Virus record (IMG/VR): IMGVR_UViG_3300037440_000405
Span: 1-52,818 of that record
Length of the DNA: 52,818 nucleotides
Direction: 5' to 3' (one strand)
Source: a virus
Taxonomy: Duplodnaviria > Caudoviricetes
How positions within the stretch are numbered: the first letter of the stretch is position 1; the number at the start of each line of letters is the position of its first letter. Below are positions 1,134 through 39,174 of the stretch, in pieces. Below the pieces are notes generated by a model. The model was not told the DNA's origin and ran no database searches. It was given only the letters and a program-made list of their open reading frames with translations. A program made the position numbers and the translations under genes.

Positions 1134-1878
1134 CGGTGCCTGCCTCGGGTGGGGCTGTGACCTCGGCGAGGTACAGCGTCGGATTCTCGTGGGCGGCGGC
1201 CTTTTCCAGGACGTCGATGAGCCGGCGGGCCTCGGCTGTGGTGAGCTCGTTGGCGCTGGCCAGGTCCCGGCCGACGATGCGGGAGCAGATGTCGAGCCGT
1301 TCGGTCCTGTCGTCGATGCCGAGTTGGCCGAACAGGGCCATCATCTTGGCGCGTTGCGGGGCGGTGTACGGCTGGGGTCCGTCGCCGGGTAGCGGTGGTG
1401 GGGCGGCGCGTTGCGCGGTGCGCCCGGCCGATTTGGTTGCGGCGGCCGCCTGCCGCTTGGCTGGTGCTGCGGCGCGTTGCGCGGTCACGCGTCCAGCGGC
1501 CGACTGCCCGTCGTCGTCTTCATCCTCGGCGGCGATGTCCAGGGCCGCGAGCAGCGCGTAGCGCCTTGCGTATGTTGTCGCGGAGCCCATGTGTTGCGGG
1601 TTCTCGCTCATCTTCAGCGGATAGAAGCCGACGATCGTCTCCCCGGATGGCACGTGCCGCAGCTCGTACCTGAGTCGGAACTTCTCGTCGTCGGTCATTG
1701 TCGGCAGGGCCGTGTAGGTGATGCCGAGCTTGTTCAGTCGGGGTAGGACGACCTCGTTGATCTGTACCAGGTCTGCGTATTTGGACTGGTGCCCCGCCTT
1801 GGTCTTCTTCAGCACGGGTGGGTCGGATTGGAACTCCAGGATGGCGGCCCAGATCCCGCCCGGTGTGGTCTCGGTCAT
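1126..1878 (-). CDS. erf: ERF-family ssDNA annealing protein
   Basis: KYADL and GSATTYARRYAL...EDDDG ERF signature; ATG at 1878 overlaps the exonuclease stop. Confidence 0.9.
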   Translation of the reverse strand: MTETTPGGIWAAILEFQSDPPVLKKTKAGHQSKYADLVQINEVVLPRLNKLGITYTALPTMTDDEKFRLRYELRHVPSGETIVGFYPLKMSENPQHMGSATTYARRYALLAALDIAAEDEDDDGQSAAGRVTAQRAAAPAKRQAAAATKSAGRTAQRAAPPPLPGDGPQPYTAPQRAKMMALFGQLGIDDRTERLDICSRIVGRDLASANELTTAEARRLIDVLEKAAAHENPTLYLAEVTAPPEAGTDG

Positions 1879-3704
1879 GATTCCTCGCCTGCCTTCGCGA
1901 GCACGTACGCGGATGCGGTGGGTGGTTCGATCGGGTCGCCGATCAGGTCGCGCGCGCCCTGGTCGAAGATGCCGACCTGGTTGGCGTAGAGGAACGACCG
2001 GTGTTGTTCGACGCCAGCGACGACCGGGACCAGCGAGTAGCCGTTGGGGCGGATCCACACGGCGCCGGTCCACGTCACCTCGGGCATCTCGAAGGCGGTG
2101 TCCGGGTCGGCTGGGTCGGGCTGCATGTACTCGGCGTACCGGTAGCCGGCCAACTGGAGTGCCGTCTCACCGAAGATGCCGGACCGGTTGGTGTTGTGTG
2201 TGGGGATCATCTGCTCGCCGCATAGGTACGTCTGATCCGGGGAGTCCACAGTGATGCACTGCGTAGGCACGGTTAGCGTCTGATCGGCGCCGACTATGAC
2301 CCGCCGCCGAGATGTCAGCCGGGCAGCCAGACTGATCAGGGAGGCCTTGCGATGCAACGCGAATGGGTTGTGGCGTTGGGGTCGCCATGACACCTTCCAT
2401 GAGGTCACTTCCCGGCCGAACCCATGCCCCTTGGTCTCCGCAATGTTGCACCGCTCACCCAAACTGTGGACCAGCTCCCGGACGGAGTAGGCGAAGGCCT
2501 TGTCGACTGAGACGAAGACGGCTTGGTGCCGGATCTTGTTCACCGTGCCATCGGTGTCCATCAGTCCCCGCAGCAGATCGAGACGTTGCTCGATCGAACC
2601 ACGCAGGTACACGTCCGGCACCGCCTTGTGGCCGAGCAGCCCGGCGCGTCGGAGATCTGTTCGCAGACCGTAGACGGTGCGCGACTGACATCTGTCGTGG
2701 CCGCTGATGTCCGGGCCGACGCGGTAACCGCGAGCAGCGATGAGGTCGAACAGCTCTTGGTCGGGCTTAGTGATGGTGCCGGTCGCGGCGGTGCCGTCAC
2801 CCAGCCATGCGCCGAACACATACGGGTCGACCGGCAAAACAACGTTCGGTAGCTCCAACGGCCCAGCGACCGGAACCCGGTGCTGATGCTGGCCACTACT
2901 GTGAGACAGGGTATTCGCCAAGTCCGTGACAGTGGCGACCTGCCAGCGCTCATACTTGCTGCGGCCGGATCGGACCAGCCAACGGTGGTCCTCGTCGCAG
3001 ATGATCTCGCTCCCGTCATCGAATCTCAGCCGACGGCAGGGCTTGAGGTGGATCTTCGACTTGCCAGTCACCTGGCATGGCTGTCCATGGCGGTCGAAGA
3101 TCACGTCTCCGGTTCGGAGCTGGCTCATCGTCGTCCAGCCAGCCGGGGTCGGGATCGGCGTGCTCAGCGCCAACCCCTTCGCGTCGATGAGGCAGCCGCA
3201 GACGAAGCCGTCGCCGTCGCGTGGCAGGTGGTCGTACTCGGGCATGTCGGGGAGCAGGATGTCTCCGAAGATGTCCAGGGTGCCGACATACCGGTGGGTC
3301 TCGGAGTAGACGACAGCCTCGACATGCTTGGCGCGTAGCTGAAACTCGTCGATGAACCTGACGTAGCTGCCGACGTAGGGCACGAGCAGGTCGGGCACGA
3401 CGACCTGCTCGCCGCTGATGATGCGCTCGCCGAGTTTGTGGACCTGAGTGCCCCGGTTGGCCGCCTCGTCCTTGGACTCATATCGCCCGCCTTGCAGTCT
3501 CTTCAACCGTGCGGACGGAGCGAGTGTGGACAGCTCGTCCCAGTGGTCGATGGCATACTCGGCGGTGGCGTTGGCAGCCCAGTTGATGAGTGCTTTCTTC
3601 GGCAGACCACGATCCATGATCTTGGTCACGCCGTCGATCTTTTCGCCGGTGTCGAGGTCGACATACCAGTGGTTGCGACCGTTGTCTCTGCGCTGGATTC
3701 TCAC
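1875..3704 (-). CDS. PD-(D/E)xK (RecB/Cas4/YqaJ-like) exonuclease interrupted by an intein
   Basis: RGTQVH, E..V, GTLD, DAK/T and QLAGY motifs; about 281 aa after intein removal; paired with ERF. Confidence 0.85.
   Translation of the reverse strand: MRIQRRDNGRNHWYVDLDTGEKIDGVTKIMDRGLPKKALINWAANATAEYAIDHWDELSTLAPSARLKRLQGGRYESKDEAANRGTQVHKLGERIISGEQVVVPDLLVPYVGSYVRFIDEFQLRAKHVEAVVYSETHRYVGTLDIFGDILLPDMPEYDHLPRDGDGFVCGCLIDAKGLALSTPIPTPAGWTTMSQLRTGDVIFDRHGQPCQVTGKSKIHLKPCRRLRFDDGSEIICDEDHRWLVRSGRSKYERWQVATVTDLANTLSHSSGQHQHRVPVAGPLELPNVVLPVDPYVFGAWLGDGTAATGTITKPDQELFDLIAARGYRVGPDISGHDRCQSRTVYGLRTDLRRAGLLGHKAVPDVYLRGSIEQRLDLLRGLMDTDGTVNKIRHQAVFVSVDKAFAYSVRELVHSLGERCNIAETKGHGFGREVTSWKVSWRPQRHNPFALHRKASLISLAARLTSRRRVIVGADQTLTVPTQCITVDSPDQTYLCGEQMIPTHNTNRSGIFGETALQLAGYRYAEYMQPDPADPDTAFEMPEVTWTGAVWIRPNGYSLVPVVAGVEQHRSFLYANQVGIFDQGARDLIGDPIEPPTASAYVLAKAGEES
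2193..3176 (-). mobile_element. Class 3 intein (328 aa) with LAGLIDADG homing endonuclease
   Basis: Starts GLALSTPIPTPAGW, block B DEDHRW, GAWLGDG and LRGLMDTDG helices, block F TQCITVDS, ends PTHN followed by Thr+1; W-C-T triad. Confidence 0.9.
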
Positions 3705-10964: not shown

Positions 10965-11459
10965 ATGGAGACGACAGTCGCGCCGGTGGCCACCAAGCGG
11001 GCCATACCAGCCGACACGTTCGCAGCCCGGCTCATGCTGGCCAGGGCGCACGCAGGTCACCTGTCGATCCGAGAGGCAGCCGACAGGTGTGGGCTGGGGC
11101 GTGGGGCATGGACAAACTGGGAACGCGGGGCACTACCCGTCGGCGAGGGTCAGATCGTCAAGATCATCTCTGAGAGTCTCGGCGTGGACCGGGACTGGCT
11201 GCTGTTCGGCGGCCCGCTCGCCCAGCCCGAACGGCGTGGCCCGCGCACCATCACACGCCGCCGCACGCTTAACAAGACCTATGCGACACCGGCCGTCCGG
11301 ACGAGCGGGCCGCGGTCCCAGCGGGCGCTACTCGCCCCCGGGCATGCCACCGGGCGTCACCCGACCGGCCGACCCGCGTCCGCTACGTCCGGCACAACCC
11401 CGGCGGAGCTCCGCCGTCCGGCCATCACCGGCCACACCCACTCCGGTAGCAGCACGTGA
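10965..11459 (+). CDS. XRE-family immunity repressor with a long low-complexity C-terminal tail
   Basis: LSIREAADRCGLGRGAWTNWERG...LGVDRDWLLFG; upstream of the integrase, divergent from cro. Confidence 0.85.
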   Translation: METTVAPVATKRAIPADTFAARLMLARAHAGHLSIREAADRCGLGRGAWTNWERGALPVGEGQIVKIISESLGVDRDWLLFGGPLAQPERRGPRTITRRRTLNKTYATPAVRTSGPRSQRALLAPGHATGRHPTGRPASATSGTTPAELRRPAITGHTHSGSST

Positions 11460-12259
11460 CCGTCACCGCACACTCTGATCTGATGCACTCGGATCTGCTC
11501 GAGGAGTACCTGGCAGACCTGGCGCACAACGCATCCCCCGGCACCGTCGCCACCTACACCACCGTGCTGCGGCTGGCCCACCGCCACCTGCCCGCCGGTG
11601 TCGTCGTCGCCACCACCGCCGAGCTCCGGGCGTGGCTCGTCTCCCGCGACTGGACGCCGGCCACCCGCTCCACCTACCGGGCCGCGTTACGCGGCCTCCA
11701 CAAGTGGCTGGTCGACCGGGACTACTCAGACTATGACCCCAGTGCCCGGCTGCCCCGGGTCAAGATCCCCTACCGATTGCCGAACCCGACCACCGACGAT
11801 GAGACCCGCCGGCTGCTCGCCTCACCTGAGCCGGTCGGCCGGTGGGCGCTGGTCGCCGCGTACACCGGCGCCCGGTGCATCGAGATCTCCCGGCTACGAC
11901 GCGAGGACGTCAGCCAGGAGTCGGTCCGGCTGGACGGCAAGGGCGACAAGGAGCGCCTCGTACCATGCCACCCGCTGATCTGGGCAGAGCTCCGCGACCT
12001 CGACGGACTGCTCGCAGCCGGGTGCACGGCGAAGATGGTCAGCGACCGCTGCCGGCACCGCTGCCGGCGGCTGCACATCACCGGCGGGCTCCACCGGCTC
12101 CGCGCCTGGTACGCGACCACCCTGCTCGCCGGCGGCGCCAACCTGCGCACCGTGCAAGAACTCCTCGGGCACACATCGCCGACGACCACCCAGGTGTACA
12201 CGCTGGTCCCGCCGGAGTCGCTGCGAGCCGCGGTCAACGGCCTGCCCGACCTGGCGTGA
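11456..12259 (+). CDS. int: Tyrosine integrase/recombinase, short (267 aa, no arm-binding domain)
   Basis: Catalytic R (TGAR), K (GKGDKER), HRLR, LLGH and Y (TTQVY). Confidence 0.93.
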   Translation: MTVTAHSDLMHSDLLEEYLADLAHNASPGTVATYTTVLRLAHRHLPAGVVVATTAELRAWLVSRDWTPATRSTYRAALRGLHKWLVDRDYSDYDPSARLPRVKIPYRLPNPTTDDETRRLLASPEPVGRWALVAAYTGARCIEISRLRREDVSQESVRLDGKGDKERLVPCHPLIWAELRDLDGLLAAGCTAKMVSDRCRHRCRRLHITGGLHRLRAWYATTLLAGGANLRTVQELLGHTSPTTTQVYTLVPPESLRAAVNGLPDLA

Positions 12260-12286: not shown

Positions 12287-12353
12287 CTCCCGGTGCGAAG
12301 CAGGTCGGATACTTCGCGAAAAGAATCCCGGCCAGCGATCTTGATCTCGGGAG
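12287..12353 (+). ncRNA. Short Y RNA (Ro-binding, YrlB-like)
   Basis: Terminal stem CUCCCG/CGGGAG, Ro-helix-like GGUGCGA.../CUUGAUCU, inner stem GCAGGUCGG/CCGGCCAGC; motifs shared with the next RNA; upstream of the TROVE gene; candidate -10 TACCGT at 12270. Confidence 0.7.
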
Positions 12354-12369
12354 ACGCCACAACTTCAGA

Positions 12370-12514
12370 TGCTGTGCCCGGTGCGTAGGAGACGGTTACT
12401 TCTCCTTTTAAGAGAGTGGTTGCAGGTTCGAGTCCTGTCGGCGACTTCGGCCGCTGTAGCTCAATCGGTAGAGCACTTTGTCACCGGTTCCGACCTTGAT
12501 CTCGGGCACCAGCA
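12370..12514 (+). ncRNA. yrlA: YrlA-type Y RNA with a circularly permuted tRNA-like domain
   Basis: Terminal stem GUGCCCG/CGGGCAC; T arm GCAGG-UUCGAGU-CCUGU precedes an acceptor-like stem capped by CUUCGG, then D arm UAGCUCAAUCGGUAGAGCA; adjacent to Ro60. Confidence 0.88.
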
Positions 12515-12518
12515 CTGG

Positions 12519-12552
12519 AACGGGCTCCTCCCCAGACGGAGAGGAGCCCGTT
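12519..12552 (+). promoter_or_regulatory. 12-bp hairpin occluding the Ro60 Shine-Dalgarno
   Basis: AACGGGCTCCTC/GAGGAGCCCGTT perfect inverted repeat; GAGGAG lies 9 nt before ATG 12556. Confidence 0.7.
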
Positions 12553-12555
12553 GTC

Positions 12556-14139
12556 ATGACCAAGTTCAACCGGCCCACCACCCGCTCCGCGATCGGCAAC
12601 TCGTCGATCATCACCGCCGAGCAGTCGACCGGGACGACCTACGAGGGTGCGCCCGGCTACGCCCGCGACGCCAAGGGTGAACTGTTCCTGCTGGCCATCT
12701 CGAACCTGGTCGGGGAAGCGACGTTCTACGAGAAGTCCGGCGACCGCGACCAGCGGTACCGCGAGTTGGTACGCCAGGTGGCCATCGCCGACGCGGAATG
12801 GATGCTGTCGTTCCTGAGCTGGCTGCGTGGCGAGGGCAACATGCGCTCGGCCTCGCTGGTCGCCTCGGCCGAGGCGGTCAAGGCCCGGCTGGACGTGATC
12901 CGCGCCGGGCTTGAGGCCGCCAACGGTGCCCGCAACCGGCAGATGATCGACGCCGTGTTGCTGCGCGCCGACGAGCCGGGCGAGATGCTGGCCTACTGGA
13001 CCTCCCGGTACGGCCGGGCGATCCCGAAGCCGATCAAGCGTGGCGTCGGCGATGCGGTGCGGCGGCTGTACTCGGAGCGGAATCTGCTCAAGTACGACAC
13101 CAACTCCCGCGGGTTCCGGTTCGGCGACGTGCTCGATCTGTGCCACCCGCGGCCGGCCGCGCCGTGGCAGGGCGACCTGTTCCGGCTGGCGTTGGACCGC
13201 AGGCACGGACGCCCGGCGGTGGAGGAGGACAGCCTGCCCATCATCGTCCGTAACCGTGGCCTGCGTGAGGCCGCCGACGCTGAGCCGGACGTGCTGCTCA
13301 ACCCCGACGCGCTGCGAGACGCCGGCATGACGTGGGAGGACGCGCTGTCGCTGGTCGGTTCACGGGTGGACAAGCGGGCGTTGTGGGAGGCGCTGATCCC
13401 GTCCATGGGGTACATGGCGTTGCTGCGCAACCTACGCAACTTCGACCAGGCGGAGGTCTCCGACGACATCGCCGCGACCGTGGCAGCACGGCTTGCGGAC
13501 CCGGAGCAGGTCGCCCGGTCGCGGCAGTTCCCGTTCCGGTTCCTCGCCGCATACCGGCATGCCCCGTCGCTGCGCTGGGGTCACGCCCTGGACCGGGCGC
13601 TCACCGCTTCGCTGGCGAACCTGCCGGAGTTGCCCGGCCGGACACTCGTTCTGGTTGACCGGTCCGGCTCGATGTTCGGCCGCATGTCCGGCCGGTCGGA
13701 GTTGGACTTCGCCGACTCCGCGACGATCTTCGGCGCGGCGTTGGCGATGCGGAACCTGGGCCGGGTGGACCTGGTGCAGTTCGGCTCCGGATCGCAGCCG
13801 GTGCCGGTGCAGCGCGGCGAATCACTGCTCAAGATCCTCGACCGATTCGTCGGCATGGGGGGTACGGAGACCGCGGCGGCCGCGCAGCGCCACTACGGCG
13901 GGCACGACCGGGTTGTCGTCGTCACCGACGAGCAGGCGTGGTCCGGTTACGGCAACCCCGGCGATCACGTGCCGGGACAGATCCCGCTGTATACGTTCAA
14001 CCTCGTCGGATACCAGCACGGGCACCAGGGTGGAGGGGTCAACCGGGTCACGGTCGGCGGTGGCTTGACCGACCATGCGTTCCGGCTGATCCCGCTCCTG
14101 GAGGCGGGGAAGTCGGGTACGTGGCCCTGGGATAGCTGA
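12556..14139 (+). CDS. rsr: Ro60/Rsr TROVE-domain RNA-binding protein with a C-terminal vWA domain (527 aa)
   Basis: TYEGAPGY, LFLLA..NLVGE.TFYE, LLKYD, MGYMALLRNLRNF, SRQFPFRF; MIDAS motif VDRSGSM...GGT...TDEQ. Confidence 0.95.
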   Translation: MTKFNRPTTRSAIGNSSIITAEQSTGTTYEGAPGYARDAKGELFLLAISNLVGEATFYEKSGDRDQRYRELVRQVAIADAEWMLSFLSWLRGEGNMRSASLVASAEAVKARLDVIRAGLEAANGARNRQMIDAVLLRADEPGEMLAYWTSRYGRAIPKPIKRGVGDAVRRLYSERNLLKYDTNSRGFRFGDVLDLCHPRPAAPWQGDLFRLALDRRHGRPAVEEDSLPIIVRNRGLREAADAEPDVLLNPDALRDAGMTWEDALSLVGSRVDKRALWEALIPSMGYMALLRNLRNFDQAEVSDDIAATVAARLADPEQVARSRQFPFRFLAAYRHAPSLRWGHALDRALTASLANLPELPGRTLVLVDRSGSMFGRMSGRSELDFADSATIFGAALAMRNLGRVDLVQFGSGSQPVPVQRGESLLKILDRFVGMGGTETAAAAQRHYGGHDRVVVVTDEQAWSGYGNPGDHVPGQIPLYTFNLVGYQHGHQGGGVNRVTVGGGLTDHAFRLIPLLEAGKSGTWPWDS

Positions 14140-39098: not shown

Positions 39099-39174
39099 CG
39101 CTGGCGGGCTGAGCGGTGGCTGGTACCAGTCGTTGCGACAGTGCCGCGGGGTTCGACTCCCCGTCCGGCGATCA
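39099..39174 (+). ncRNA. Degenerate tRNA-like cloverleaf, antisense to the head operon
   Basis: T arm CGGGG-TTCGACT-CCCCG; acceptor-like CGCTGG/CCGGCG; no canonical anticodon loop. Confidence 0.35.

What the first reader, a model, noticed from the sequence alone, without database searches (positions are those of the whole stretch)
12400..12483. The Y RNA's permuted tRNA domain appears to keep an intact tRNA-Lys(UUU) anticodon arm: possible anticodon-nuclease decoy or switch
Seen: UUCUC-CUUUUAA-GAGAG (5-bp stem, 7-nt loop CU-UUU-AA) is followed by a 5-nt variable loop (UGGUU), T arm, acceptor stem sealed by CUUCGG, and D arm. That is a whole tRNA opened between the D and anticodon arms and unable to be charged. 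Known: described YrlA RNAs use the anticodon-stem position as the linker to the Ro helix and lack an anticodon loop; tRNA-Lys(UUU) is a target of anti-phage anticodon nucleases such as PrrC and PARIS AriB. The canonical YrlA pairing (AGAGAGU with ACUUUGU after the D arm) is also possible and is mutually exclusive with this arm. Inference: the Ro-protected RNA could be a decoy or sensor for tRNA-cleaving defences, with cleavage toggling the fold.
Basis: partly seen in the sequence, partly recalled or inferred. Interest (0 to 1): 0.85.

Follow-up and report, generated by a model that had tools for sequence, protein, structure and literature searches.

The report
Anticodon-like hairpin in phage Y RNA
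A phage's Ro60-partner Y RNA carries a small hairpin that looks like a tRNA anticodon arm; the hairpin is real and conserved in many relatives, was already drawn as an extra "V" arm of these RNAs, and its middle letters vary freely, so it is not a lysine-tRNA decoy.

Summary
Window 12400-12416 is a 5-bp hairpin with the 7-nt loop CUUUUAA. It lies 5 nt before the T arm of a YrlA-class Y RNA (about 12374-12509), directly upstream of a Ro60/TROVE gene in a temperate actinophage.

Of 132 related tRNA-like domains registered only by a sequence motif, 91 keep the hairpin. Their loop frame matches real anticodon loops: C32 81, U33 90, purine-37 82, A38 90 of 91. Positions 34-36 show 27 different triplets; UUU occurs in 3 of 91.

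Covariation shows that the two outer hairpin pairs compete with conserved pairs to the strand after the D arm, and lose to them. The best-supported fold is a three-way junction. Two anticodon-stem pairs form in trans, three in cis, and the Ro60-binding stem branches off.

This hairpin is the "V" stem-loop of Chen et al. 2014. M. smegmatis YrlA appears to have the same loop type. ARAGORN and GenBank records call such RNAs tRNAs.

A Lys-specific nuclease decoy is not supported. Generic anticodon-loop mimicry is plausible but untested. The RNA is a new member of a known family, with a modest structural reinterpretation.

The parts
11456..12259 (+). Tyrosine integrase gene, directly upstream of the Y RNA cassette
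   Evidence: Pfam Phage_integrase 1.6e-12 and Phage_int_SAM_1 2.2e-06
12287..12353 (+). First, short Y RNA (YrlB-like). It has the same 5' and 3' closing-stem motifs and the YUAY-UUC motif but no tRNA-like domain. Ends are approximate.
   Evidence: Read. The same tandem arrangement is seen by eye in L002, L003 and L004. Not analysed further.
12374..12399 (+). 5' strand of the Ro60-binding stem of the large Y RNA. It includes the conserved GGUGCG-type motif and ends in the YUAY motif (12396-12399).
   Evidence: Constrained folds pair it with 12480-12509. The Ro-proximal stem pairs on average 6.6 of 9 positions in 85 of 91 homologues.
12400..12404 (+). 5' strand of the hairpin. UUC (12400-02) is fixed in the family. 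12403-04 covary with 12412-13.
   Evidence: UUC was the anchor used to pick the sequences, so its invariance in A1 is by construction.
12405..12411 (+). 7-nt anticodon-like loop CUUUUAA (positions 32-38 in tRNA numbering)
   Evidence: Loop frame in 91 hairpin-bearing homologues: C32 81, U33 90, U36 68, A37 69 (purine 82), A38 90. Positions 34-37 change 3-7 times faster than the backbone in 146 close pairs.
12412..12416 (+). 3' strand of the anticodon-stem mimic (39-43). 12412-14 pair in cis with 12402-04. 12415-16 pair in trans with 12476-77, or in cis with 12400-01.
   Evidence: Trans 43:27 is GC 92, CG 13, UA 8, AU 4 of 130. Trans 42:28 is GC 59, AU 46, CG 9, UA 5 of 130.
12417..12421 (+). 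Variable-loop equivalent (5 nt)
   Evidence: Spacer length is 5 nt in 83 and 4 nt in 32 of 132.
12422..12438 (+). T arm
   Evidence: Rfam YrlA alignment. 100% of cells paired in A1.
12439..12456 (+). Closed acceptor-stem equivalent: 7 positions with one A.C mismatch and a UUCG loop
   Evidence: RNAalifold predicts a covarying 7-bp stem across 130 sequences.
12457..12475 (+). U8-A9 equivalent, D arm (12459-74) and A26 equivalent
   Evidence: Rfam YrlA alignment. D stem 99.6% paired in A1.
12476..12477 (+). Positions 27-28: 5' strand of the two trans pairs that close the tRNA-like domain
12480..12509 (+). 3' strand of the Ro60-binding stem, with the conserved UUGAUCUCGGG-type motif
   Evidence: The motif recurs in the homologues listed.
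12520..12551 (+). Perfect hairpin between the Y RNA and the Ro60 start; it contains the likely ribosome-binding site
   Evidence: Seen and as a palindrome in the chance-level Rfam rows. Not studied.
12556..14139 (+). Ro60 (TROVE) gene, 527 aa
   Evidence: Pfam TROVE 8.7e-19. 120 viral and 326 genomic relatives.

Best explanation
The flagged hairpin is a real, conserved part of a YrlA-class Y RNA, the non-coding partner of Ro60, encoded by a temperate actinophage. It is the element that Chen et al. 2014 called the 'V' stem-loop.

Shown here: it does not sit where a tRNA variable arm sits. It sits at the lower anticodon stem and loop.

The best-supported fold is a three-way junction:
- Positions 27-28 (12476-77, just after the D arm) pair in trans with 42-43 (12415-16).
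- Positions 12402-04 pair in cis with 12412-14 and carry the 7-nt loop.
- The Ro60-binding stem branches from the 5' side of this composite stem.

Because the 3' strand 39-43 is continuous, the trans and cis pairs can stack into one 5-bp stem. This stacking is inferred. The tRNA-like module then has an anticodon stem-loop mimic as well as T, D and acceptor arms.

The loop keeps the anticodon-loop frame, with consensus C-U-N-N-U-A-A. Its middle letters drift or diversify quickly.

Inferred function: the loop offers a generic anticodon-loop shape to whatever tRNA-binding factor the Ro60-Y RNA particle engages. That factor could be a modification enzyme, a nuclease or a repair enzyme. The loop does not mimic tRNA-Lys specifically.
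For: Identity of the RNA:
- The Rfam YrlA model matches 12415-12477 at E 1.9e-06.
- The TROVE gene starts 47 nt downstream.
- My model R1 finds the same RNA in 8 of 8 cultured actinophage Ro loci that were not used to build it. The best hits score 50-83 bits.

Hairpin conservation:
- 91 of 132 motif-registered domains form the three inner cis pairs with a 7-nt loop.
- Cis 30:40 pairs in 101/132 and 31:39 in 108/132, with 0/2000 shuffles as high.
- Pair types are GC 41, CG 40, UA 10, AU 3 and AU 67, CG 24, UA 9, GC 5.

Trans pairs:
- 27:43 pairs in 109/132 and 28:42 in 108/132, with 0/2000 shuffles as high.
- Double changes occur in 26 and 60 of 130 sequences.
- When 43 is C (12/132), the cis U.C pair breaks, while G27-C43 forms in 11.
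- The hybrid structure gives the highest figures of the three tested. Cells paired: 95.2% for hybrid, 93.9% for cis and 89.0% for trans. Covariation score: 0.427, 0.339 and 0.390.
- RNAalifold independently predicts the trans pairs.

Junction: the 3'-side linker is 2-3 nt in 65 of 91.

Loop frame compared with real tRNAs of the same loci (144 tRNAs):
- C32: 89% against 72%.
- U33: 99% against 94%.
- Purine 37: 90% against 99%.
- A38: 99% against 73%.

ARAGORN of the 91 as tRNAs, 35 of them with the anticodon at loop positions 34-36.

A primer printed in the methods of PMC4201824 for M. smegmatis YrlA reads through a loop of the same type.
Against: - No structure probing or expression data exist for this RNA.
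- In the window itself the nearest-neighbour energies favour the full 5-bp cis hairpin (-45.4 kcal/mol) over the hybrid (-40.9). All the enforced tRNA-like folds lie above the unconstrained minimum of -47.9.
- The whole region folds no better than shuffled sequence (z -0.25).
- RNAalifold does not predict the cis hairpin in the consensus.
- 41 of 132 domains lack the hairpin in this register. A second class of YrlA in the same loci has a full trans stem and no loop, so the loop is not essential to the family.
- Position 37 is a pyrimidine in 9 of 91 and changes in 40% of close pairs. Real anticodon loops rarely tolerate this.
- The sequences are related, so shuffle controls overstate significance.
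- Coaxial stacking and any protein partner are inferred, not shown.
Confidence: 0.6

Rival explanations
1. First reader's reading. The loop is a tRNA-Lys(UUU) anticodon mimic that serves as decoy or sensor for Lys-specific anticodon nucleases such as PrrC or PARIS AriB. Cleavage would toggle the RNA between two folds.
For: - The window's loop reads CUUUUAA.
- Hughes et al. 2020 suggested that YrlA could competitively inhibit an anticodon nuclease (passage).
- One cultured phage has an RNA ligase gene beside its Ro gene.
- The middle loop positions evolve fast, as an arms race would predict.
Against: - UUU occurs in 3 of 91 hairpin loops and CUU in 13. There are 27 different triplets.
- The three closest relatives read by eye have UUG with G37, CUU and UGU.
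- V-loop and T arm: 23 consecutive identities to a tRNA-Trp of a related host clade, against a 40-column alignment of score 21 to its tRNA-Lys(UUU).
- No anticodon nuclease, RNA ligase or kinase-phosphatase family was seen in the 25 window ORFs scanned. Not all ORFs were scanned.
- Salmonella YrlA was not cut by the SOS-induced nuclease.
Confidence: 0.07
2. Plain structural arm. This is the 'V' stem-loop as published: an extra helix that stabilises the junction or contacts Ro60. The loop frame would be kept for folding or for a tertiary contact, not for recognition as an anticodon loop.
For: - Chen et al. 2014 describe it as a less-conserved fourth stem-loop.
- It is missing in 41 of 132 domains and in the Salmonella RNA.
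- Pyrimidine-37 variants exist.
- The fixed UUC and YUAY motifs next to it point to a junction role.
Against: - The hairpin lies 5' of positions 42-43, which pair with 27-28. A class II variable arm lies 3' of position 45 (established tRNA numbering).
- Fixed loop size of 7, with C32, U33 and A38 at 89-99%, is what an anticodon-type U-turn loop needs.
- An independent tRNA finder reads it as the anticodon arm in 35 of 91.
Confidence: 0.22
3. Conformational switch. The cis outer pairs (UUC with 41-43) and the trans pairs (27-29 with 41-43) are alternative states. Ro60 binding, RNase P cleavage or a ligand would move the RNA between a free hairpin and a closed tRNA-like core.
For: - In most sequences 41-43 can pair either way. 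Cis pairs form in 105, 113 and 97 of 130; trans pairs in 119, 122 and 102 of 130.
- The energies of the three states in the window lie within 4.5 kcal/mol.
Against: - Only the trans partners covary. The cis partner UUC never changes, and the cis pair is sacrificed when 43 or 42 changes.
- This is what one selected structure plus accidental complementarity would also give.
Confidence: 0.1
4. Neutral relic or phage attachment site. Either the hairpin is a decaying leftover of the first tRNA of a tRNA dimer from which YrlA arose, or the tRNA-like stretch beside the integrase is an attP copy of a host tRNA 3' part.
For: - The dimeric-tRNA origin model is cited in bioRxiv 312249.
- ARAGORN reads the 5' half as a tRNA in 38 of 91.
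- The integrase gene ends 115 nt upstream.
- There is a 23-nt exact match to a tRNA-Trp T arm in one Micromonospora genome.
Against: - A relic would not keep loop size, C32, U33 and A38 while the stem covaries and 34-37 turn over.
- The arrangement recurs next to Ro60 in 160 loci regardless of an integrase.
- The tRNA-Trp match stops inside the acceptor stem. No longer core was found in 5 related genomes. The true host is unknown.
Confidence: 0.05

Closest known systems
YrlA RNAs of Actinobacteria and mycobacteriophages (Chen et al. 2014, PMC4201824; Rfam RF02553), especially M. smegmatis YrlA
   Same: - Encoded just upstream of Ro60, in tandem with a second short Y RNA.
- A 5'/3' closing stem for Ro60.
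- A conserved YUAY motif followed by a stem-loop ('V').
- Then T arm, closed 7-bp acceptor-like stem and D arm.
- A published M. smegmatis primer reads through the same loop type.
   Different: - Below Rfam's gathering score (36.3 against 69 bits).
- The CGAA-type Ro motif reads CGUA here.
- The published label is 'variable arm'. My covariation places the hairpin at the lower anticodon stem and loop.
- I could not see the paper's figures or supplements.
Salmonella Typhimurium YrlA crystal structure (Wang et al. 2018, bioRxiv 312249; PDB 6CU1 as cited there)
   Same: L-shaped tRNA mimic with T, D and closed acceptor arms. The anticodon-stem equivalent continues into the Ro60 module. The UA of YUAY is conserved.
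   Different: The Salmonella RNA has a continuous, kinked anticodon-stem equivalent, a 6-bp acceptor stem and, in the authors' words, no anticodon loop. The phage RNA has a branched stem that carries a 7-nt loop.
Canonical tRNA anticodon stem-loop, for example tRNA-Lys(UUU)
   Same: A 5-bp stem and a 7-nt loop with C32, U33, A37 and A38. A 5-nt variable loop leads to the T arm. Loop-frame frequencies equal or exceed those of 144 real tRNAs from the same loci, except at position 37.
   Different: - The 5' strand of the stem is discontinuous (27-28 from one strand, 29-31 from another), with the Ro stem inserted.
- The acceptor end is closed.
- No tRNA finder accepts the window's RNA.
- There is no specific likeness to tRNA-Lys outside the loop.
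Long variable arm of class II tRNAs (Leu, Ser, Tyr)
   Same: An extra hairpin near the junction of the anticodon stem and the T arm. This is the analogy used in the 2014 paper.
   Different: A class II arm lies between positions 45 and 46, after the 3' strand of the anticodon stem, and usually has a 3-5-nt loop (established knowledge). Here the hairpin lies before positions 42-43 and has a 7-nt loop.
Phage-encoded tRNAs and tRNA mimics as counter-measures to anticodon nucleases
   Same: A phage-borne tRNA-shaped RNA with an anticodon-type loop that changes fast.
   Different: Those are chargeable tRNAs that replace cleaved host tRNAs. This RNA is a Ro60-bound Y RNA, and no link to any nuclease is shown.

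Membership tests
YrlA-class Y RNA | Encoded next to a Ro60/Rsr (TROVE) gene | tested here: met
   TROVE 8.7e-19 for ORF 12556-14139. The RNA ends about 47 nt upstream.
YrlA-class Y RNA | Permuted tRNA-like domain: T arm, then closed acceptor-like stem, then D arm | tested here: met
   Rfam YrlA alignment of 12415-12477, E 1.9e-06. T and D stems are 100% and 99.6% paired in 130 homologues.
YrlA-class Y RNA | Reaches Rfam RF02553 gathering score (69 bits) | tested here: not met
   36.3 bits. None of 20 related viral loci reaches it either. The curated model seems not to cover this actinobacterial and phage branch.
YrlA-class Y RNA | 5'/3' closing stem with the Ro60-binding motif (GNCGAAN0-1G in Chen 2014) | tested here: inconclusive
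   The stem forms in constrained folds. The motif here is a GGUGCG-U-AGG variant (CGUA in place of CGAA). Homologues have A, C or U at that place.
YrlA-class Y RNA | Bound by Ro60; carries tRNA modifications; RNase P and CCA processing | not testable with these tools
   No RNA run holds the stretch. Shown only for other species in PMC4201824.
Genuine tRNA gene (tRNA-Lys) | Cloverleaf in normal order, accepted by tRNA finders | tested here: not met
   ARAGORN finds 0 genes in the window. The Rfam tRNA model gives 18.4 bits against a gathering score of 29.
Anticodon stem-loop mimic | 5-bp stem, 7-nt loop, pyrimidine 32, U33, purine 37, and 4-5 nt to the T stem | tested here: met
   The window meets all of these. 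In the family: C32 81, U33 90, R37 82, A38 90 of 91. The spacer is 4-5 nt in 115 of 132.
Anticodon stem-loop mimic | Stacks under the D stem; recognised or modified like an anticodon loop | not testable with these tools
   Inferred only from the continuous 3' strand and junction lengths.
Class II tRNA variable arm ('V' arm) | Hairpin located 3' of the anticodon stem's 3' strand (after position 45) | tested here: not met
   The hairpin lies 5' of 42-43, which covary with 27-28.
tRNA-Lys-specific decoy | UUU (or CUU) triplet kept among relatives | tested here: not met
   UUU in 3 and CUU in 13 of 91, among 27 triplets. The nearest relatives differ.

The most novel reading that the evidence does not exclude
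Actinobacterial and actinophage YrlA RNAs may be complete two-ended tRNA mimics. [quoted passage not shown] The fast-changing 34-37 letters and the kept C32/U33/U36-A37/A38 frame would then make it a tunable sponge or bait for anticodon-directed enzymes. Those enzymes could be defence nucleases, t6A-type modification enzymes or synthetases. Ro60 would protect the bait or bring an exonuclease. Phage copies would act as counter-defence or, from the prophage, as host protection.
Probability: 0.12. Interest if true: 0.85.

Novelty: new member of a known kind. Interest (0 to 1): 0.45.

Why it matters
Y RNAs are the obligate partners of Ro60, from bacteria to humans. What the tRNA-like module of bacterial YrlA binds is still unknown.

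If the so-called variable arm is really an anticodon stem-loop mimic, the search for the effector narrows to proteins that read anticodon loops. Those include modification enzymes, anticodon nucleases, repair ligases and synthetases. The published idea that YrlA competes with an anticodon nuclease would then gain a structural basis.

There is also a practical point. tRNA finders and several GenBank phage records label the 5' halves of these Y RNAs as tRNA genes. This inflates phage tRNA counts and hides the Y RNAs.

For this window the result is mostly sobering. The RNA is an ordinary member of a described family, and its UUU is one of many interchangeable triplets.

Tried and rejected
- Rfam at gathering threshold found nothing in the window or in 20 related loci. 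Only the E-value scan found the partial YrlA match.
- A single-sequence fold of 12330-12520 is no better than shuffles (z -0.25), so thermodynamics alone proves nothing.
- My first two parsers were too strict or too loose. even missed the window. They were replaced by the parsers.
- The class definition required the inner pairs, so its 67/67 pairing is circular. I do not use it as evidence. The motif-only set replaces it.
- attP idea: I searched 5 related genomes with 12390-12460. The best hits were their own Y RNAs. The longest real-tRNA match was 23 nt to tRNA-Trp. Rejected as the main reading. The true host is unknown.
- tRNA-Lys ancestry: there is no isoacceptor-specific signal.
- Expression: no RNA holder is listed for the stretch. 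Five sediment-metagenome DNA runs hold it, one of which may be the source. I did not lay reads.
None concerned this hairpin.
- Literature: 8 held papers contain both 'YrlA' and 'anticodon'. I read passages of all 8. None describes the V stem-loop as anticodon-like.
- A search for Y RNA, anticodon nuclease, decoy, Ro60 and phage added only the jumbo-phage review. That review places phage TROVE proteins among RNA-repair systems.
- Three reviews that could have preempted this were not held: Sim and Wolin 2018, Sim et al. 2020 and Boccitto and Wolin 2019. Figures and supplements of Chen 2014 were not visible, so prior notice in print cannot be excluded.
- A possible pairing between the loop and the short Y RNA, and between the loop's UAA and YUAY, was considered by eye. 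I dropped it because the YUAY variants showed no covariation. No formal test was made.
Full report
**1. The observation**

Positions 12400-12404 and 12412-12416 form five pairs around a 7-nt loop, CUUUUAA. Five nucleotides later comes a canonical T arm (12422-38). After that come:
- a closed acceptor-like stem (12439-56: seven positions, one A.C mismatch, UUCG loop);
- UA;
- a D arm (12459-74).

Rfam's tRNA model aligns the hairpin as an anticodon arm, but only at 18.4 bits (E 0.32; gathering score 29). ARAGORN finds no tRNA in the window.

**2. What the RNA is**

The window is a 52.8-kb viral contig with terminal repeats. Capsid, portal, tape-measure and lysin genes lie on the minus strand. 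An HTH gene, a tyrosine integrase and a 527-aa TROVE (Ro60) gene lie on the plus strand.

The flagged stretch lies in a 136-nt RNA (about 12374-12509) that ends 47 nt before the Ro60 start. Rfam's YrlA model matches its T, acceptor and D part at E 1.9e-06, but at 36.3 bits against a gathering score of 69. Twenty related loci also stay below threshold. A second, short Y RNA without a tRNA-like part lies just upstream (about 12287-12353; read).

**3. Comparative set**

The Ro60 protein retrieved 80 viral loci and 80 genome loci, the latter from Micromonosporaceae, Streptomyces, Nocardiopsis, Rhodococcus and others.

A script found 174 distinct domains with the order T arm, closed stem, D arm. 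A few of these are chance hits in coding DNA or pairs of neighbouring tRNAs. Of the 174, 132 have the conserved UUC exactly 17 nt plus a 3-6-nt spacer before the T stem. I used this motif alone to set the register, with no requirement for pairing.

In these 132:
- Cis pairs 30:40 and 31:39 form in 101 and 108. Shuffled means are 47 and 55, and 0 of 2000 shuffles reach the observed values.
- 91 form the three inner pairs with a 7-nt loop.
- In those 91 the loop has C32 in 81, U33 in 90, U36 in 68, A37 in 69 (purine in 82) and A38 in 90.
- Positions 34 and 35 use all four bases.

For comparison, 144 distinct real tRNAs from the same loci have C32 in 103, U33 in 136, U36 in 53, purine 37 in 142 and A38 in 105.

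Among 146 close pairs of Y RNAs, loop positions 34-37 differ in 27-62% of pairs. The backbone differs at 8.3% per site. Positions 32, 33 and 38 differ in 6%, 7% and 0%.

So the loop frame is held while the middle turns over.

**4. Which pairs are selected**

The pair-count tool was run on a MAFFT alignment of 130 of the 132. Two were dropped: one on the minus strand and one with a very long closed stem.

For the full cis hairpin:
- The three outer pairs never change on both sides. Their 5' partner is the fixed UUC.
- They are unpaired in 25, 17 and 33 sequences.
- The two inner pairs covary richly.

For the full trans stem:
- 43:27 and 42:28 covary (GC 92, CG 13, UA 8, AU 4; GC 59, AU 46, CG 9, UA 5).
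- The inner two trans pairs are mostly unpaired, in 88 and 63 of 130.

When position 43 is C (12 of 132), the cis pair becomes U.C, but G27-C43 forms in 11.

A hybrid of two trans pairs and three cis pairs gives the best figures: 95.2% of cells paired and covariation score 0.427. The cis hairpin gives 93.9% and 0.339, and the trans stem 89.0% and 0.390.

RNAalifold, run without my structure, predicts three trans pairs, the T arm, a covarying 7-bp closed stem and the D arm. It does not predict the cis hairpin.

In 65 of 91 hairpin-bearing RNAs the Ro-proximal stem begins 2-3 nt after pair 28:42.

The picture is a three-way junction. The 3' strand 39-43 is continuous, so the trans and cis pairs can stack into one 5-bp stem with a 7-nt loop. 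The Ro60 stem leaves from the 5' side. The stacking is inferred.

In the window itself the full cis hairpin is slightly more stable by nearest-neighbour energies: -45.4 kcal/mol, against -42.1 for trans and -40.9 for hybrid. The unconstrained minimum is -47.9. A toggle between states cannot be excluded.

**5. What was known**

Chen et al. 2014 (PMC4201824; sections 6 and 8 and other passages read):
[quoted passage not shown] The conserved YUAY begins it.
- This is the same element.
- Their methods print a primer for the 5' half of M. smegmatis YrlA that reads through a loop of the C-U-N-N-U-A-A type, followed by a 5-nt spacer. So the experimentally studied RNA appears to have it too.
- M. smegmatis YrlA has a 7-bp closed stem, is cut by RNase P in vitro and in vivo, and receives CCA. 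The authors note that it 'could potentially be aminoacylated'.

Wang et al. 2018 (bioRxiv 312249, passages) state that the Salmonella RNA lacks an anticodon loop. They cite a model in which YrlA arose from a tRNA dimer.

Hughes et al. 2020 (PMC7790460, passage) suggest that the tRNA-like domain may competitively inhibit an anticodon nuclease.

None of the 8 held papers that contain both 'YrlA' and 'anticodon' calls the V stem-loop anticodon-like (and the readings listed under Tried and rejected).

**6. An independent reader and public annotation**

ARAGORN of the 91 hairpin-bearing RNAs as tRNAs. In 35 of these the anticodon falls at loop positions 34-36.

My covariance model R1 was built from the 130-row alignment, which includes the window. 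In all 8 cultured actinophage Ro loci fetched afterwards, its best hit scores 50-83 bits. In four of them a GenBank tRNA feature overlaps an R1 hit:
- Gordonia phage VanLee, tRNA-Arg(tct);
- Streptomyces phage GiJojo, tRNA-Arg(cct);
- Streptomyces phage Frankenweenie, tRNA-Pro(tgg);
- Streptomyces phage JustBecause, tRNA-Cys.

In Gordonia phage Trax, small hypothetical ORFs lie over the Y RNAs.

**7. The lysine-decoy idea**

- The 91 loops carry 27 different triplets. UUU occurs three times (the window and two genomes) and CUU thirteen times.
- The three closest relatives by Ro60 identity (77%, 67%, 63%) have UUG with G37, CUU and UGU. Two of them have lost the D or the T arm (read by eye).
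- Outside the loop the window's hairpin, V-loop and T arm show no special likeness to tRNA-Lys. The best real-tRNA match in five related genomes is 23 nt of a tRNA-Trp. A tRNA-Lys(UUU) aligns over 40 columns with a score of 21.
- No RNA-repair or nuclease family turned up in the 25 window ORFs scanned.

The family therefore does not conserve a lysine identity. A role as bait for anticodon-directed enzymes in general remains possible. It fits the fast-changing triplet, but nothing here tests it.

**8. Verdict**

- Shown: the hairpin is real, conserved and covarying. Its loop has the anticodon-loop frame. The two top pairs of the stem are made with the strand after the D arm. The element is the published V stem-loop.
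- Inferred: coaxial stacking into a full anticodon stem-loop mimic, and recognition by a tRNA-binding factor.
- Not supported: tRNA-Lys identity, and the claim that the element is undescribed.

The object is a new member of a known family. The repositioning of the 'V' arm as an anticodon-arm mimic, and the mis-annotation of such RNAs as phage tRNAs, are modest additions.

Noticed in passing
window 12287-12353 (+): A second, short Y RNA lies upstream of the large one. It has the same closing-stem motifs and the YUAY-UUC motif but no T or D arm. The same tandem pair is seen in the closest relatives L002-L004.
   Followed up: partly
L174:1155-1226; L177:1269-1343; L181:1245-1335; L175:580-650: GenBank tRNA features lie on or over Y RNAs next to the Ro-like gene: VanLee tRNA-Arg(tct), GiJojo tRNA-Arg(cct), Frankenweenie tRNA-Pro(tgg) and JustBecause tRNA-Cys. 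R1 hits there score 82.9, 46.6, 57.2 and 26.3 bits. They are probably not decoding tRNAs.
   Followed up: partly
L176:1248-1658 (Gordonia phage Trax): Three small 'hypothetical protein' CDS are annotated over two R1 Y-RNA hits (68.7 and 30 bits) just upstream of the Ro-like gene.
   Followed up: no
L175:974-1726 (Streptomyces phage JustBecause): An annotated RNA ligase gene lies directly upstream of the Ro-like gene. This echoes the Ro60-RtcB link known from Salmonella.
   Followed up: no
window 12520-12551 (+): A perfect hairpin without a U-tract lies between the Y RNA and the Ro60 start codon. It contains the likely ribosome-binding site. Similar hairpins stand in the same place in many homologous loci (visible).
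   Followed up: no
L003:1340-1450 and L004:1330-1440: The close relatives keep the anticodon-like hairpin but have lost other arms. L003 has no recognisable closed stem or D arm. In L004 the T arm is replaced by a short palindrome. Read by eye only.
   Followed up: no
loci such as L009, L022, L035, L063: Many loci carry two YrlA types side by side. One has the 7-nt-loop hairpin. The other has a GGRAAC-type single-stranded stretch and a full 5-bp trans stem whose strands covary (ACCGA/UUGGU, ACUGA/UCAGU, ACCUU/AAGGU by eye).
   Followed up: partly
window 1875-3704 (-): A 609-aa ORF has a LAGLIDADG domain (5.5e-06) in its middle, consistent with an intein or homing endonuclease insertion.
   Followed up: no
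window 39147-39163 (+): A T-arm-like 17-mer gives a weak R1 hit (10.9 bits, E 0.64) in the portal-protease gap. It is at chance level by this model.
   Followed up: no
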